Of a stretch of DNA of 64,000 nucleotides, positions 12,001 through 18,000 are shown in pieces (the first letter of the stretch is position 1; every line of letters starts with the position of its first letter). The position numbers are program-made. The DNA lies in NCBI RefSeq assembly GCF_056746865.1, contig NZ_CM163382.1. One strand, written 5' to 3'.

Positions 12001-15000
12001 AGGTGTCCACACTGCCACGAGGTGAGTTAGCCAGGTAGTAACTGCCTATCGGGAATGGCATTGTGCGAATGATGTCCTCGTCATCCTCCAGCACTGCCAT
12101 TGCACCAGTGCTGTATGTGCCGAGGCTTCCGTATAACTGCGGCAGCGACTGATAGAGATTCGACTTATTGAACATATCGTTCATGCGGTTCTGCACCGCC
12201 TCAAGCCACAACTTAACAGGGCCATAATCCATCATTTCAGGATCTGGCGTAGCCAGGCGAAACCACGGACGCGCGGGGCTTGTGATGCCTGACATCATGC
12301 CGCTGGCGAGAGTGCGCGCCGCCATAGTCCCGGTCGAATCAATAATGCGTGTATTGCGTCGATCGTTACGGTTAACCTCAGAAGTCAGAAAGCGGGAACC
12401 ACGCGGGTTGATGTAATCACTCAACTCGCGCCAGTGCGGCTCGAACGACTGACGCTCGCTTTCAAGTTGTGCGAACTGTTTGTTCAATCGCTCTTTAGTT
12501 GTTTCCGCCATTTCAATGACTCCGGTTACTGACCAAGCAGCGTTTTACCGCTGGTATTAGCGGTTGATGTGTCGCCCTGAGAACCGGTAAGCAGCGTAGA
12601 ACTACGACCAGCAGCAGCGCGACGGCGACGAGTTTCTTCGTCGCGGGCATCAACAACGGCGGCATCCTGCTCCTGTGGTGCTGCCTGAACTTCTGGTGTT
12701 GCAGGCACTGATGGTGAGCTACCCATGCACATATCAATGACTCCGTACGCAATTAAATTATTACCAATTTAACCACATATGATTTATTTATCGTAGGTAG
12801 TTGACATTTAACGCACAAATTATTACCTTTCAGGTAACCAAAGAGTTCATTCCGGTTACTAACCTGACTGGCTTGTCGTTAAATTGAACAGGTGGAGTGA
12901 GCTTTTATTTTGAGCAGTACGGCGTATGGCACATGCGCCGATAGCGGTCTGGATACGTTTAAGGGGCACCCTCCCTTGCTCGGGCAAACGAACCAGGTAG
13001 CCGGAATGTGCAAGTCGAGCGGTTTTATTCCGCGCACGGGGATTCACCATCCCGGCGATTCGGTGTGACGCCTCGGAAGAGACGAGGGTACAACGATGAG
13101 AGCATTTATGGAGCCGCGACAAAGTGTGGCGCCTTAACAGGCTAAGTGCTCTCAGCGTTGTGGCATTAGCTCAGCTGGACAGAGCAACCGCCTTCTAAGC
13201 GGTTGGTCGCAGGTTCGAATCCTGCATGCCACGCCAGAATCACGCCTAAGGACCGTGATGCCAGAAGTTCCATGGGCTTGGCGGTGATGGTTTCCCTTGA
13301 AGGACTATCACCGCCCTTTTTACAGCAGGACGCCATTGCGATGGCTTCATGCTGTAAACCAGTACAGCCACGGAAGGCATAACTCATTGCTTCCAGTTCG
13401 CCCGGTTCGCCGGGCATTTTTTTAAGGTGAGATGATGAACGACCAGCAAATCGAAAAAGAAATCGTTGAGAAAGGTAAAACGGCACCTCGTGTAACTCCT
13501 GAGAAAATTGAAGGTCTCATTTGCAGTGAGCATTTTTTACTGCTGCGCAGGGGGATCATCAGGCTAAAGAAGATGACCTTATTTATAATCCAGAGCCTTA
13601 TGTCGAAGCCACCCCTGATGCTCTGCACCTTCTCACTTTCTGCGTCCTGGTGCTGCGCAACGACTTCACCGTCACCGGAGAGAGCGCCTGTGCAAGCCCG
13701 GAAAACTTTGATGCAGAAATTGGTCGGAAGATTGCCCGGCAGAATGCTGTAAACAAAATCTGGATGCTTGAAGGTTACTTGCTGAAGCAGAAGTTAAGCG
13801 GGCAATAACACCGTGACATGTCACAAACAGCCAGCCTATGAGCTGGCTTTGTTTTATCCTCACCAGAGGATATCAACGACATTATCCCCACCAGCGGATT
13901 AAGCATAGGGATCGTAATCTGTAATGGCCTTGCCTTGCTGGTTCTGCTGACCTGGAATTCGCAGACGCTTCGACACAGGGAAAGCAAACGTCAGCAATAG
14001 CGCATCGCCTTTACCCGGCGAACGCCCAAGACGCTCTTTGATATCTTCCTTCGGTTCGATAACGATTTTACCGTCCACGCGAACTTTGTACTCTGCCGCC
14101 GACAGGTCGTCCGCTGTTTCCTGGTCATCCAGCATGCCGCCCAGCCTCAGCCATGTCTTACATGAGTTGAACATCTCCCCACGCTTGTTAAGCATCTGCG
14201 GGTCAGTGGACGCACCGCCGAACGGAACAAGTTGCCATGTACGCCCCCAGCCATCACCGATTGACTTCAAACCGGTTCCGTAACCGAAGTCGATGAACAC
14301 TGCGTCAGCCTGGTACTGGTCTTCAAAGTCAGCGATACGCTTCGCCATAATCAGATCGTCAGTGGTCTTGTTGCCAGTCCACAGCACCTTACTGTGCAGC
14401 CCCTGCCGCAGGTATATCACAGCGTCATCAACGCCGGAGTATGCCGGGTCAACGCCGATTATCACCGGAGCATGTGCAACCTGCGCAGCGGTTACCACCC
14501 GTTTCATTGCCTCGTCAGTAAGACCGGTAGGGATAAACTGCAATTCAGATGCATCAGGGAATATGCCACGCACACGGATTTTAACGAAGTCGCTGTCTTC
14601 CCCGTAGTCATCAACCCATTTCTGCAACTGCTGTTTGTTAGTGCCTTCCACCGTCCGGCTGTCAATCTGCGCAGTTTTCCAGCGGTGTTTATATTTGCGG
14701 AAACATTCGCGAAAACGCCCGGTGTTACGTGTAGGGTTTCCGAACGCCACCCAAATAATCTCAGTGTCTTCGTCCGTAAGCGCACCCTCGGCAACTTCCC
14801 ACACCAGATCCGCAATGTTCGACGCTTCATCAAACACCACGATGATGCGTTTGCGCTCGTTGTGTAGTCCGGCGAATGCCTCAGTGTTGTGCTCAGACCA
14901 GGGTATTGCGTCAGCCCGCCACCGCTTGTCGTGCCCAGGGTCATTGCTGTACATCGCGGTAGCGGTACAGGTAAACCAGTCTTTCGTGATAGCAAGGTTC

Positions 15001-18000
15001 GACCACTTGATAATTTCCGGCCAGGTCTTCGTTCGTAGCTGGTTGTCGGTGTTGGCGGTCACCACGACCTTACAATCCTCGCAAGTGGACATGCCCCAGT
15101 TGATGAGCATTGAGATGAATGCGGATTTACCAATACCGTGACCAGAAGCACGTGCCAGCATAAGCGGCTGATAACGCGTCTCTGGATTCTGCAGGTGATC
15201 ACGTATCTCTCGGAACGCATCGGCCTGCCACTGACGTGGACCGGTAGCATGTGCCAGTTCAGTCCCCTCTTCCCCCCAAGGGAACGCATAGAGGGCATAG
15301 CCAAGCGGATCGTGAGTGAACCCTGCAATATCTTCGATTAACTGCTCTTCAGGAGATAACGCTGCATCTGTCACTGATTACCATCCTGACGTTCTTTGAG
15401 TCGCTTCCTGGCTGCCGCTATGCGATCAGCAATTGTCACATTCACATTAACATCCAGTCGTTCTTTGAATGCGTTGACGTCGACGTGCTTACCAATCAGT
15501 TCGAGGTTCTTCACCTTGTCAGGCCATTTAATTTTTTTGAGGATTGTCTCTATCGAATCCTCGTTCATGTTCATGATGGTCGATGACAGATCAAAGCCGC
15601 TAAGCGTAGTGCGCCAGATTTTCGGCCACTCGCGGATTGGCTTAAGGCTCCCATCGTCGTTGAGGATATCAATCACGTCCATCTGGTCGATCTCCACCAG
15701 GCGCATGAGAACGTAATCAGCACTGACGCGCATTCGTTTGTTGCGCTCCTCCATCAACTCGGCAATCCGTTTCTGAATGCGTTCATCGCGCATCATGACA
15801 CTGGCTTTAACTGCCGCTGTATTTGGGGAGAATCCTGCATTAATCGCAGCCTGAGTCTGGTTTTCAGGCGTTTTGATGTATGACTGGCAATAAGCCTCCT
15901 GCATTGCTGTTAGTGGCTTAAATTGCGTTGATTTGCGTTTATAGGCTTTAGGTTCAGCAGGCATCATAACCACCGTGGTAATAGTTACCGTTGTGGTAAT
16001 AGTAACATGCAAAATAAAGCCGCCATAGTTGGCGGCAGTATTCAAAGTCCATCAAATTCATCGTAAAAACTCTCGTCAAGATACCCTTCCCATTTACCGC
16101 GAATGAAAATTACATCCTCGCCGCAAGGGTGCTGACTGTCGATAACTATATCCCTCCTGGCGCAACCATACTTATGCATGAGAAATTTAACCTCTTTCGG
16201 AAAATTTGCTGAGTTATCTCTCATATCTTCAAGGTCGTAGCGTATTTTTGGCATAACACCTTCGTGACATGTCACACTATTAATTTCGTTTCATGCCAGC
16301 CTTTAGTCACCCAGCATTGTGAGTCACCATTACACGGACATGAATTAACTGGAACTCTCTCGCCGCACTTACCGCAACGTTTTCTACTGATCGATTTTAT
16401 ACGCCCGCGCACGCGTGCATCATCCTGGCGGATCAGTAACGCTATATACTCACCAAATTCGTAAGGCGCACGCCCGGGGCGACGCGCGGCACAGTTACGC
16501 TCAAGCATTTCAATTTCCTGAGCATCAAGCACAATCTCCAGCTTACGTACACCGGATGCAGCTTGTCTGGCTCTCTGAGCGGCTTTGCGCTCTGCTGCTG
16601 ATTTAGCCATCAATATTCACCTTTATCGCGTAAACCTTTACCGGTTTATCTCCGAAGTGCGGATGTGTGATTGTCTTGATTTCATATCCGTCATACGGGA
16701 CGTCAATTCTACGACTGGAGTCGTCGCGCTTCGGATATCCCTTTGTGATAATCAGTCGGTCATAATCCCTGAACATAATTCGCTTATTCCAGTAGTCATT
16801 ACACAGGCGATACTCTTCCGTTTTCTCTCCGCGAATCATGGCATCGAAGTATTCACCTTTGACGGCAAGTTGCAGGTTAGCCACGGTTAACCTCCTTCGG
16901 CGGTTCTGGTAGAGGCATCCAGTACAAGGCGTTCCCTAACCACGATAAAGTGCCGTCGCTCAACTCCACGTATTCCCCTTGTACCTGTCCTGCCATATAC
17001 TCGCCGTGCTTTGAATAAATTAAAATCCAATCATCTTGAGCGGGCATTCGCTCACTACAGCTTATCCAACTATCCGGAGTTACCGGATAGTTGCCAGCCA
17101 GTCTACGCAAAACAGCCTTAACAGCCTCAATACGGTCATCATCGCAATTTTCCAGCGTATCTATGCGGTCGAGCATGATGATGGCGTTATCAATATCAGG
17201 ATTGCCAGTCCACTCATTATCGCGATTGGATTCGGCAGCCTGGTTGCCAGATGCTGGCTGATTGTCGGCTTGGCTATAGCTAACAGCACGGCAGGCATCC
17301 TCTACGCCTTTAACTGCATCTGCACAGTAGTTATAGCGATTGCATTCCACTAACTTCTGCTTGAGATTTTCAATTGCTTGCGCGACATCAGCCTGTATTG
17401 GCGGAACGGCTGTTTGCTCTCGAACGTCATTAGTCGCTATCGGTTCTGCTGCCAACTGACTGGCATATTTGTTAATGGTAACGATAAGCTCTTGCTCGGC
17501 CTCATCCAGACAATCACCGATACCTCGCCTGTCACCGTCAAAATCATCGAAATCGGCACGAATCCTGGCAACCTCCCGGATTGCGGACAACACTTCACCA
17601 GGAATAAGCGGAGAGTTGCCCGATAGTACATTCTGCTCCAGCGATGCCAGAGCAATTCGTGCCAGTTCTTCCGCTTCTTCTGCTGGCAGTACAACGTTGC
17701 TACCAGGTCCGTATGTTTCGCGCCACTGCTTGATTGTCAGTAGTCGCTCTTTGGTAATAGTGATCATGCCGCGTTTCCTTCTTTCTTATTAACAATTACA
17801 CCGTCATATATTTCATTAAGGTGCCCTCTTAACTCCATGCGCCTTAATGCAGATAACATGTAATCGCATTCAACCTGCTTATTTCCAGTAAATGGCTTAT
17901 CGTCAGGATTACCCCAACAGCAATTACCCTTGGGCCACCCATGTACTTTCCGTACTCTTCCGTTAACAACGTGAAGTAATCCCCAGCCAGGTGGTAAATC

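What the first reader, a model, noticed from the sequence alone, without database searches (positions are those of the whole stretch)
13801..16276. Two copies of a 12-bp perfect palindrome GTGACATGTCAC with similar flanks bracket the terminase genes
GGCAATAACACC-GTGACATGTCACA (13801-13825) and GGCATAACACCTTC-GTGACATGTCACA (16250-16276) are about 2.45 kb apart and flank the terS/terL block plus one small gene. They could be binding sites for a late regulator, or relics of the recombination joint that shuffled a terminase module into this phage.
Basis: seen in the sequence. Interest (0 to 1): 0.35.

Follow-up and report, generated by a model that had tools for sequence, protein, structure and literature searches.

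The report
Conserved phage palindrome marking transcription-unit boundaries
The two palindromes are real copies of a short DNA motif (GTGAC-NN-GTCAC) that is kept in a whole family of temperate phages, sits right after stop codons next to transcription terminators, and travels with one uncharacterised DNA-binding protein gene, so it is most likely that protein's binding site rather than a scar of recombination.

Summary
GTGACATGTCAC occurs exactly at 13813-13824 and 16264-16275, against about 0.07 chance matches to GTGACNNGTCAC in 64 kb. The window holds a phiV10/epsilon15-like (Uetakevirus) prophage.

The motif is genus-wide, and complete genomes carry three copies:
- one overlapping the stop codon of a 113-aa gene just upstream of terS;
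- one beside the terminator after terL;
- one at the end of the structural operon, which lies outside this window.

Each copy sits between a stop codon and an intrinsic terminator, and is an island of identity next to variable small cargo genes. The half-sites are invariant and the centre varies.

Distant homologues (33-41% identity) of the 113-aa protein lie in unrelated backbones (Mu-like, lambdoid and others). They again have GTGAC-NN-GTCAC beside them: 8 sites in 75 kb, against 0.03 expected. The protein models as a ribbon-helix-helix domain plus a Cys4 domain.

Best reading: the motif is this protein's operator, acting at transcription-unit boundaries. Binding and the direction of the effect are inferred. 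The mosaic joints are real but flank cargo genes, so the idea of a shuffled terminase module is not supported.

The half-sites equal those of E. coli matS (GTGACRNYGTCAC), but the spacing is one base shorter.

The parts
13813..13824 (.). PAL1: GTGACATGTCAC. It lies 4 nt after the stop codon of the plus-strand cargo gene and 4 nt before the terminator stem.
   Evidence: Perfectly conserved in epsilon15, phiV10 and Tyrion. Of 80 close relatives, 52 have it exact, 9 have one mismatch, 16 lack it and 2 loci were too short.
16264..16275 (.). PAL2: GTGACATGTCAC. It overlaps the TGA stop codon of the 113-aa gp55-family gene and lies 9 nt upstream of the ORF77 start codon.
   Evidence: Exact in 75 of 79 close relatives. 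Also kept when the stop codon lies 5-10 nt upstream of it.
16272..16613 (-). Gene for the 113-aa gp55-family protein (equivalent to phiV10 p55 and epsilon15 gp49; phrog_536). It has a basic helix, a ribbon-helix-helix domain, a long helix and a Cys4 domain. It is the proposed binder of the motif.
16042..16254 (-). ORF77 (70 aa from its ATG): a variable cargo gene between PAL2 and the terminator upstream of terS. Relatives carry an 8-codon remnant, MHDEFDGF*.
   Evidence: phrog_1541. About 50% amino-acid identity to a small T4 ORF next to uvsY. Present in 28 of 80 relatives.
16010..16036 (-). Intrinsic terminator between ORF77 and terS.
   Evidence: RNA fold -16.9 kcal/mol, z -3.8.
13829..13855 (+). 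Intrinsic terminator shared by the convergent cargo gene and terL. PAL1 abuts it.
   Evidence: A terminator-like hairpin lies within about 5 nt of 44 of 112 unique motif sites, against 12 of 336 control positions within 30 nt.
13432..13808 (+). Gp49/Sf6 gp66-family cargo gene in the PAL1 slot. It is frameshifted in this window.
   Evidence: The same slot holds at least 5 other cargo types in relatives.
13899..15374 (-). terL, the large terminase subunit, lying between the two motif copies.
15371..15967 (-). terS, the small terminase subunit (Terminase_2).

Best explanation
GTGAC-NN-GTCAC is the cognate DNA site of the small ribbon-helix-helix plus Cys4 protein encoded at 16272-16613 (the phiV10 p55 / epsilon15 gp49 family, phrog_536). 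A dimer would read the two invariant 5-bp half-sites. One site overlaps the end of the protein's own gene. The others lie between a stop codon and an intrinsic terminator at the edges of transcription units: the early operon against terS-terL, terL against the oppositely oriented cargo gene and tRNA, and, outside this window, the end of the structural operon. The bound protein most likely modulates read-through at these boundaries. It could block elongating RNA polymerase or help it pass the adjacent terminator, and it might also bridge sites. Because the site is held constant while the neighbouring small cargo genes turn over, it appears as the exact edge of homology in alignments, so the mosaic joints are a by-product. 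Shown: conservation, position, half-site architecture, association with the gene family, and the protein fold class. Inferred: physical binding, and the sign and mechanism of the effect.
For: (1) The motif is genus-wide. phiV10 has sites at 2262 and 19493 plus a one-mismatch site spanning the record ends. Tyrion has exactly three (2702, 20377, 41755). epsilon15, about 80% identical in DNA, has both window copies perfect.
(2) It is an island of identity. The flanks on the cargo side are unrelated between phages, and the terminators at the three loci are unrelated to each other.
(3) The half-sites are invariant and the centre varies (AT, CT, GT, TT, AC) in a lineage whose protein is about 62% identical. 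The site persists when it is not part of the stop codon.
(4) Homologues of the protein at 33-41% identity in unrelated backbones carry the motif beside them. These are a Mu-like prophage (L299), a Nu1-type lambdoid phage (L296), an HNH/Terminase_4 phage (L295) and L302. In L302 the motif overlaps the gene's TGA stop exactly as here. In total there are 8 sites in 75.2 kb against 0.034 expected, P about 4e-17.
(5) One homologue with a different predicted beta-strand (L211) is instead accompanied by three copies of another palindrome, GGGACCAYGGTCCC, each 0-5 nt after a stop codon.
(7) The cargo gene does not carry the motif in phages of other types: Sf6 and an Stx2a phage lack it. The motif therefore belongs to the backbone that encodes the protein.
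(8) The motif RNA does not form a stable hairpin of its own, and no Rfam family matches.
Against: No binding experiment exists. The association could in part reflect the site being inherited together with the 3' end of the gene. Three distant-homologue loci (L214, L298, and L211 for this exact motif) have no GTGAC-NN-GTCAC within 4-5 kb. The predicted beta-strand residues differ among homologues that share the same half-sites, so which part of the protein reads GTGAC is unclear. PAL1 is missing from 16 of 78 close relatives, including the viable phage TL-2011b, so that copy is dispensable. A roadblock placed immediately after a stop codon would truncate the upstream mRNA, which is awkward for the roadblock variant. 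No sigma-70 promoter was found at the sites, which is awkward for a lambda-Q-like loading model.
Confidence: 0.55

Rival explanations
1. The palindromes have no function of their own. They are recombination hot spots or scars, short homologies or cruciform-prone sequences at which cargo genes and modules are joined.
For: Both window copies lie exactly at breaks of homology. At least six different cargo states occur at the PAL1 slot. Two cargo genes in tandem each end with the motif plus a terminator (L037). The terL block is about 85% identical to Klebsiella-type relatives in DNA, whereas the portal block is about 60%.
Against: A scar would not keep ten bases invariant across epsilon15, phiV10 and Tyrion at three non-homologous loci, nor in Mu-like and lambdoid backbones where the accompanying protein is only 33-41% identical. 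The centre varies while the half-sites do not, which is the signature of a protein-binding site. The cargo gene lacks the motif in Sf6 and Stx2a phages. No dedicated recombinase is associated with the motif.
Confidence: 0.1
2. The sites are bound by a host factor, most obviously MatP, whose matS site GTGACRNYGTCAC has the same half-sites. The phage would use or mimic the host chromosome-organising system.
For: The half-sites are identical to matS (consensus taken from PMC6907758 and PMC3603311). All hosts of the Uetakevirus group are enterobacteria, which encode MatP (my own knowledge).
Against: The spacing is 12 bp, not 13 bp. No 13-bp matS pattern is present in the window. True matS is reported to be absent from, and avoided in, 500 E. 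coli and Salmonella prophages (PMC3603311). The motif tracks the phage protein family across backbones.
Confidence: 0.1
3. The sites are operators of a different phage regulator (CI, Cro, AlpA-like or PerC-like), not of the gp55-family protein.
For: Several other DNA-binding proteins are encoded by these phages. Binding by gp55 is only inferred.
Against: The CI-type operator is a different motif, TTACC-N5-GGTAA. It has 8 copies in phiV10 including the immunity region, and 7 in the window. No motif-like site lies in the immunity region. Only the gp55-family gene is shared with the Mu-like, lambdoid and other phages that carry the motif.
Confidence: 0.1
4. The motif acts in RNA, as a 3'-UTR element between the stop codon and the terminator, for example a processing or stability signal.
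For: The motif consistently sits between a stop codon and a terminator hairpin, and so is transcribed.
Against: There is no stable hairpin of its own in the predicted folds and no Rfam match. In L061 the motif lies downstream of the cargo-strand terminator. In L299 it lies inside a coding sequence, and in L295 just upstream of a ribosome-binding site.
Confidence: 0.05
5. The sites are terminase recognition (pac or cos) elements flanking the packaging genes.
For: PAL2 lies upstream of terS, and the phiV10 record starts in the middle of it.
Against: The phiV10 record was simply cut after the last stop codon. There are three sites per genome, one of them 17 kb away. The motif also occurs in lineages where the gene is not next to terminase genes.
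Confidence: 0.03

Closest known systems
MatP / matS of E. coli (Ter macrodomain organiser)
   Different: matS is 13 bp (GTGACRNYGTCAC) and this motif is 12 bp. There is no detectable sequence similarity to MatP (BLASTP E 13; hhalign probability 0.4%). The phage protein lacks the four-helix bundle and has a Cys4 domain instead. The sites are in phage genomes, beside stop codons and terminators.
Stoperators of Cluster A mycobacteriophages (L5, Bxb1)
   Same: These are dispersed copies of a short protein-binding site in short intergenic spaces near stop and start codons of a temperate phage, thought to act on elongating RNA polymerase rather than on initiation (definition from the abstract of PMC9283540).
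   Different: Stoperators are numerous, asymmetric, oriented, and bound by the immunity repressor (partly from my own knowledge). Here there are 3 palindromic sites per genome, and the immunity-type operator is a different motif.
Lambda Q gene, Q-binding element at PR', terminator tR', then late genes
   Same: The regulator gene is the last early gene. Its putative site lies directly downstream, and a terminator precedes the late (terminase) genes.
   Different: No promoter was detected at the site. The protein has no similarity to Q families, and some phages carry both a Q gene and a gp55 homologue (L211, L300).
Moron or boundary sequences at mosaic joints of lambdoid phages
   Same: Small cargo genes with their own terminator are inserted between backbone genes, and a conserved short sequence lies at the joint.
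   Different: The same 12-mer is kept at three non-homologous loci and in unrelated phages, which shared ancestry of a linker does not explain.

Membership tests
Operator of a ribbon-helix-helix regulator (gp55 / phrog_536 family) | Dyad-symmetric site with conserved half-sites | tested here: met
   Logo of 80 unique sites: Y-GTGAC-N-T-GTCAC-R, half-sites invariant, centre variable.
Operator of a ribbon-helix-helix regulator (gp55 / phrog_536 family) | Site co-occurs with the protein gene across otherwise unrelated genomes | tested here: met
   8 sites in 75.2 kb around distant homologues against 0.034 expected. 4 of 7 independent loci of at least 8 kb carry the motif.
Operator of a ribbon-helix-helix regulator (gp55 / phrog_536 family) | Protein has a sequence-specific DNA-binding fold | tested here: met
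Operator of a ribbon-helix-helix regulator (gp55 / phrog_536 family) | Direct, specific binding of the protein to the site | not testable with these tools
   Needs gel shift, footprinting or ChIP.
MatP / matS | 13-bp site GTGACRNYGTCAC | tested here: not met
   The sites are 12 bp. GTGACNNNGTCAC has 0 hits in the window.
MatP / matS | Half-sites GTGAC / GTCAC | tested here: met
   Consensus taken from PMC6907758.
MatP / matS | Binder is a MatP homologue | tested here: not met
   BLASTP E 13. hhalign probability 0.4%. No Pfam MatP hit among 50 family members. Only fold-class similarity. A profile of diverse MatP sequences could not be built.
Stoperators (Cluster A mycobacteriophages) | Same sequence as the immunity operator and bound by the immunity repressor | tested here: not met
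   The immunity-region operator type is TTACC-N5-GGTAA. No motif-like site lies there.
Stoperators (Cluster A mycobacteriophages) | Sites in short intergenic spaces at stop or start codons | tested here: met
   The stop codon lies 0-10 nt from the motif at all three loci and in distant phages.
Stoperators (Cluster A mycobacteriophages) | Blocks transcript elongation | not testable with these tools
   Needs transcript mapping with and without the protein.
Lambda-type Q antitermination module | Sigma-70 promoter overlapping the binding element, upstream of the terminator | tested here: not met
   The promoter scan found none near 16264 on the minus strand. Manual inspection found only inconsistent -10 matches across lineages.
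Lambda-type Q antitermination module | Protein belongs to a Q family | tested here: not met
   No Q family hit. Q genes coexist with homologues in L211 and L300.
pac / cos packaging site | Single site at the genome terminus or packaging start | tested here: not met
   Three sites per genome. The phiV10 record end is an annotation cut after a stop codon. Physical ends were not examined.
Passive mosaic boundary sequence | Lies at a junction of conserved and variable DNA | tested here: met
   Homology to HEMP4 starts at 13813, and to relatives lacking ORF77 at 16262. Multiple cargo types occupy the slot.
Passive mosaic boundary sequence | Conservation explained by common descent of the locus alone | tested here: not met
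   The same motif occurs at three non-homologous loci and in unrelated backbones.

The most novel reading that the evidence does not exclude
The gp55-family protein and its GTGAC-N2-GTCAC sites form a phage-borne counterpart of the host MatP/matS system. A ribbon-helix-helix protein would bridge or insulate a few dispersed sites at transcription-unit boundaries. The system might be evolutionarily related to MatP/matS, or it might be tuned to be one base off so that it escapes or competes with host MatP. A related reading is that it is a stoperator-like elongation-control system in enterobacterial phages, operated by a non-immunity protein.
Probability: 0.15. Interest if true: 0.8.

Novelty: new variant of a known kind. 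Interest (0 to 1): 0.5.

Why it matters
About a quarter of complete E. coli genomes (1292 of 5426) carry DNA matching this region, and PGAP annotates the protein there as hypothetical. The analysis pairs an uncharacterised and widespread phage protein family (155 clusters at 50% identity; found in podovirus-like, Mu-like and lambdoid prophages) with a defined 12-bp site. That makes its function directly testable. The position of the sites, after stop codons and against terminators at the borders of cargo-gene slots, suggests a way in which temperate phages insulate transcription units and accessory genes. The identity of the half-sites with matS raises a concrete question about cross-talk with, or shared origin of, the host chromosome organiser. 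I found no paper containing the 12-mer.

Tried and rejected
1. Genome terminus idea. The phiV10 record ends in the centre of the motif, but the record was simply cut after the last stop codon, so this was rejected as evidence for cos or pac.
2. RNA element. Folding shows no hairpin formed by the motif itself, and Rfam finds only the tRNA.
3. Promoter element. The sigma-70 scan was negative, and two of the three sites lie at convergent junctions where no gene starts.
4. CI operator. The CI-type operator is a different motif, TTACC-N5-GGTAA.
5. Motif carried by the cargo cassette, like an integron attC site. The Gp49-family cargo gene has no such motif in Sf6 or an Stx2a phage.
6. Homology to MatP. 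BLASTP and hhalign were negative. A database search with MatP returned only near-identical sequences, so no profile test was possible.
7. The single-sequence structure model was poor. The alignment-based model was used instead.
8. Foldseek against the PDB gave nothing significant.
9. Literature. The epsilon15 genome paper (PMC2698709) is not held. The paper on phage ZX5 concerns other proteins. A search for Uetakevirus late regulation found nothing relevant.
10. A Markov-simulation control timed out and was replaced by an analytic expectation.
11. Flank similarity as part of the motif. It is not conserved in other lineages.
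Full report
**Observation**

GTGACATGTCAC occurs exactly twice in the 64-kb window, at 13813-13824 and 16264-16275. A third site with one mismatch at 10772 lies inside a coding sequence. Chance expectation is 0.22 for up to one mismatch and 0.07 for GTGACNNGTCAC.

The copies bracket three genes, all on the minus strand:
- terL, 13899-15374;
- terS, 15371-15967;
- a 70-aa gene, ORF77, 16042-16254.

It has different meanings at the two sites. At copy 1 it is the stop codon plus a 4-nt spacer of a plus-strand cargo gene. At copy 2 it is the antisense of the ribosome-binding site and start codon of ORF77. It is not conserved in other lineages.

**Context**

The window carries a phiV10/epsilon15-like (Uetakevirus) prophage with its late genes on the minus strand. 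Read in the late direction, the order is:
1. a 113-aa gene (16272-16613; equivalent to phiV10 p55 and epsilon15 gp49) whose TGA stop lies inside PAL2;
2. ORF77;
3. an intrinsic terminator (16019-16036);
4. an operator-like site, TTACC-N5-GGTAA (15985-15999);
5. terS and terL;
6. a terminator shared with the opposite strand (13829-13848);
7. PAL1, followed by the end of a plus-strand Gp49/Sf6 gp66-family cargo gene (13432-13808) and tRNA-Arg (13160-13236).

**The motif is a property of the phage group**

- epsilon15, about 80% identical in DNA, has both copies perfect.
- phiV10 has the two sites (one with a mismatch) and a third at 19493-19504. The third lies between the last gene of the 16-kb structural operon and its terminator.
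- Enterobacter phage Tyrion has exactly three perfect sites at the equivalent places. The third site falls outside the left end of our window.
- Among 80 close relatives from viral contigs, PAL2 is exact in 75 of 79. PAL1 is exact in 52, has one mismatch in 9 and is absent in 16.
- In every case the order is stop codon, 0-10 nt, motif, then a terminator hairpin or a small ORF followed by a terminator.
- A terminator-like hairpin lies within about 5 nt of 44 of 112 unique sites. For control positions the figure is 12 of 336 within 30 nt.

**Mosaic joints**

The motif is an island of identity.
- At PAL1, homology to phage HEMP4 begins exactly at 13813, and an unrelated 140-aa gene fills the slot there.
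- Relatives show at least six states of this slot. One is an empty slot with an 8-codon ORF, MKYEFDGF*. Another is a replacement that removes the motif, as in TL-2011b.
- At PAL2, homology to relatives lacking ORF77 begins at 16262. They retain an in-frame remnant, MHDEFDGF*.
- A diverged lineage also has an ORF77 homologue after PAL2 (L294), so ORF77 is probably ancestral there.
- Against Klebsiella-type relatives the terL block is about 85% identical in DNA and the portal block about 60%. The change falls in the PAL1/cargo/tRNA region.

The joints are therefore real, but they delimit cargo slots and the terL/portal border. They do not delimit a terS-terL module bounded by the two palindromes.

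**Site architecture**

In a lineage whose 113-aa protein is about 62% identical to ours, the site after the gene is kept in 69 of 80 loci with at most one mismatch. Its centre varies (CT, GT, TT, AC, AT) and the half-sites are invariant. The site is kept even when the stop codon lies 5-10 nt upstream. The logo is Y-GTGAC-N-T-GTCAC-R.

Predicted RNA folds give the motif no hairpin of its own, and Rfam finds only the tRNA. This pattern fits a duplex site read by a dimeric protein.

**Which protein**

The decisive evidence is comparative. Distant homologues (33-41% identity) lie in unrelated backbones, and GTGAC-NN-GTCAC is found beside them:
- L302: overlapping the gene's TGA stop exactly as in our window, plus a second intergenic copy.
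- L299 (Mu-like prophage): inside the 3' end of the gene, plus a second copy.
- L295: 138 nt downstream of the gene, and 23 nt upstream of terS.
- L296 (Nu1-type lambdoid phage): a tandem pair after a Bro-N gene.

In total there are 8 sites in 75.2 kb against 0.034 expected. A homologue with different predicted beta-strand residues (L211) is accompanied instead by three copies of GGGACCAYGGTCCC, each 0-5 nt after a stop codon. Conversely, the Gp49-family cargo gene carries no such motif in Sf6 or an Stx2a phage.

The CI-type operator of these phages is a different motif, TTACC-N5-GGTAA. It has 8 copies in phiV10 and 7 in the window.

**Mechanism**

I commit to this reading: the motif is the cognate site of the gp55-family protein and acts at transcription-unit boundaries. 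The association and the fold class are shown. Binding is inferred.

The direction of the effect is open. Three variants are possible:
- a roadblock or insulator, analogous to stoperators;
- a factor that helps polymerase through the adjacent terminators, which would resemble the gene order around lambda Q;
- bridging of sites, as proposed for MatP.

Some points argue against each simple version. No promoter is found at the sites. A roadblock directly after a stop codon would truncate the upstream mRNA. PAL1 is dispensable in about 20% of relatives.

**Comparison with known systems**

The half-sites equal those of E. coli matS, GTGACRNYGTCAC (PMC6907758). However, the spacing is one base shorter, the window has no 13-bp matS pattern, and the protein shows no sequence similarity to MatP. 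True matS is reported absent from prophages (PMC3603311).

Membership in the matS/MatP, stoperator, Q-antitermination and pac/cos systems each fails on at least one defining feature. The resemblances concern how the site may work, not family membership.

**Verdict**

The regulator-site interpretation is supported in substance. The idea of a shuffled terminase module is not. The finding is a previously undescribed pairing of a motif with a protein, of moderate interest and directly testable.

Noticed in passing
window 13533-13538: The Gp49/Sf6 gp66-family cargo gene (13432-13808, plus strand) has T6 where E. coli TUM13773 has T7. This gives a frameshift, so the gene is a pseudogene or there is a homopolymer sequencing error.
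   Followed up: yes
window 12823-12837, 15985-15999, 20058-20072, 20120-20134, 22407-22421, 23119-23133, 23181-23195: There are seven copies of a second dispersed palindrome, TTACC-N5-GGTAA, against 0.12 expected. The epsilon15 record annotates equivalent sites as repressor binding sites. Two of the seven lie just upstream of terS and of the gp3/portal operon, which suggests direct control of the late units by the immunity-type repressor.
   Followed up: partly
window 16042-16254 (minus strand): ORF77 (phrog_1541) is about 50% identical in protein to a small ORF next to uvsY in T4-like phages. It is present in only 28 of 80 close relatives.
   Followed up: partly
L001 near 5150, L005 near 2690-2716, and relatives: Eight-codon ORFs ending in EFDGF (MHDEFDGF*, MKYEFDGF*, MKDEFDRF*) sit next to the motif at both PAL1 and PAL2 in relatives, and ORF77 ends in ...YDEFDGL*. 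They may be deletion remnants or a conserved mini-ORF. This is unexplained.
   Followed up: partly
L211 positions 1804, 6151, 7481: A lambdoid-type prophage with a 45%-identical gp55 homologue has three copies of GGGACCA(T/C)GGTCCC, each 0-5 nt after a stop codon. This may be a co-varying site for a diverged family member.
   Followed up: partly
L017, L031, L284 (just downstream of PAL2): Klebsiella-type relatives carry, directly after PAL2, a promoter-like TTGACT...TATACT overlapping a LexA-box-like CTGT-N8-ACAG. This suggests an SOS-controlled cargo gene in that slot.
   Followed up: no
window 13160-13236 (plus strand): tRNA-Arg (anticodon TCT) lies on the strand opposite the late genes, between the portal and terminase blocks, upstream of the cargo slot.
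   Followed up: no
window 10772-10783; L129 5306-5317: A one-mismatch copy of the motif lies inside the small gene downstream of the portal gene. In phiV10 it reads R-D-M-A-Q and is conserved there. It is probably a coding coincidence.
   Followed up: partly
L215-L294 (contig ends): In the lineage with a protein about 62% identical, the gp55 gene and its motif lie near an AlpA-like gene and the integrase end of about 40-kb prophages, not next to terminase genes. The motif is followed by a conserved small hairpin, CCTG-ATGCAG-CAGG, and then variable ORFs.
   Followed up: partly
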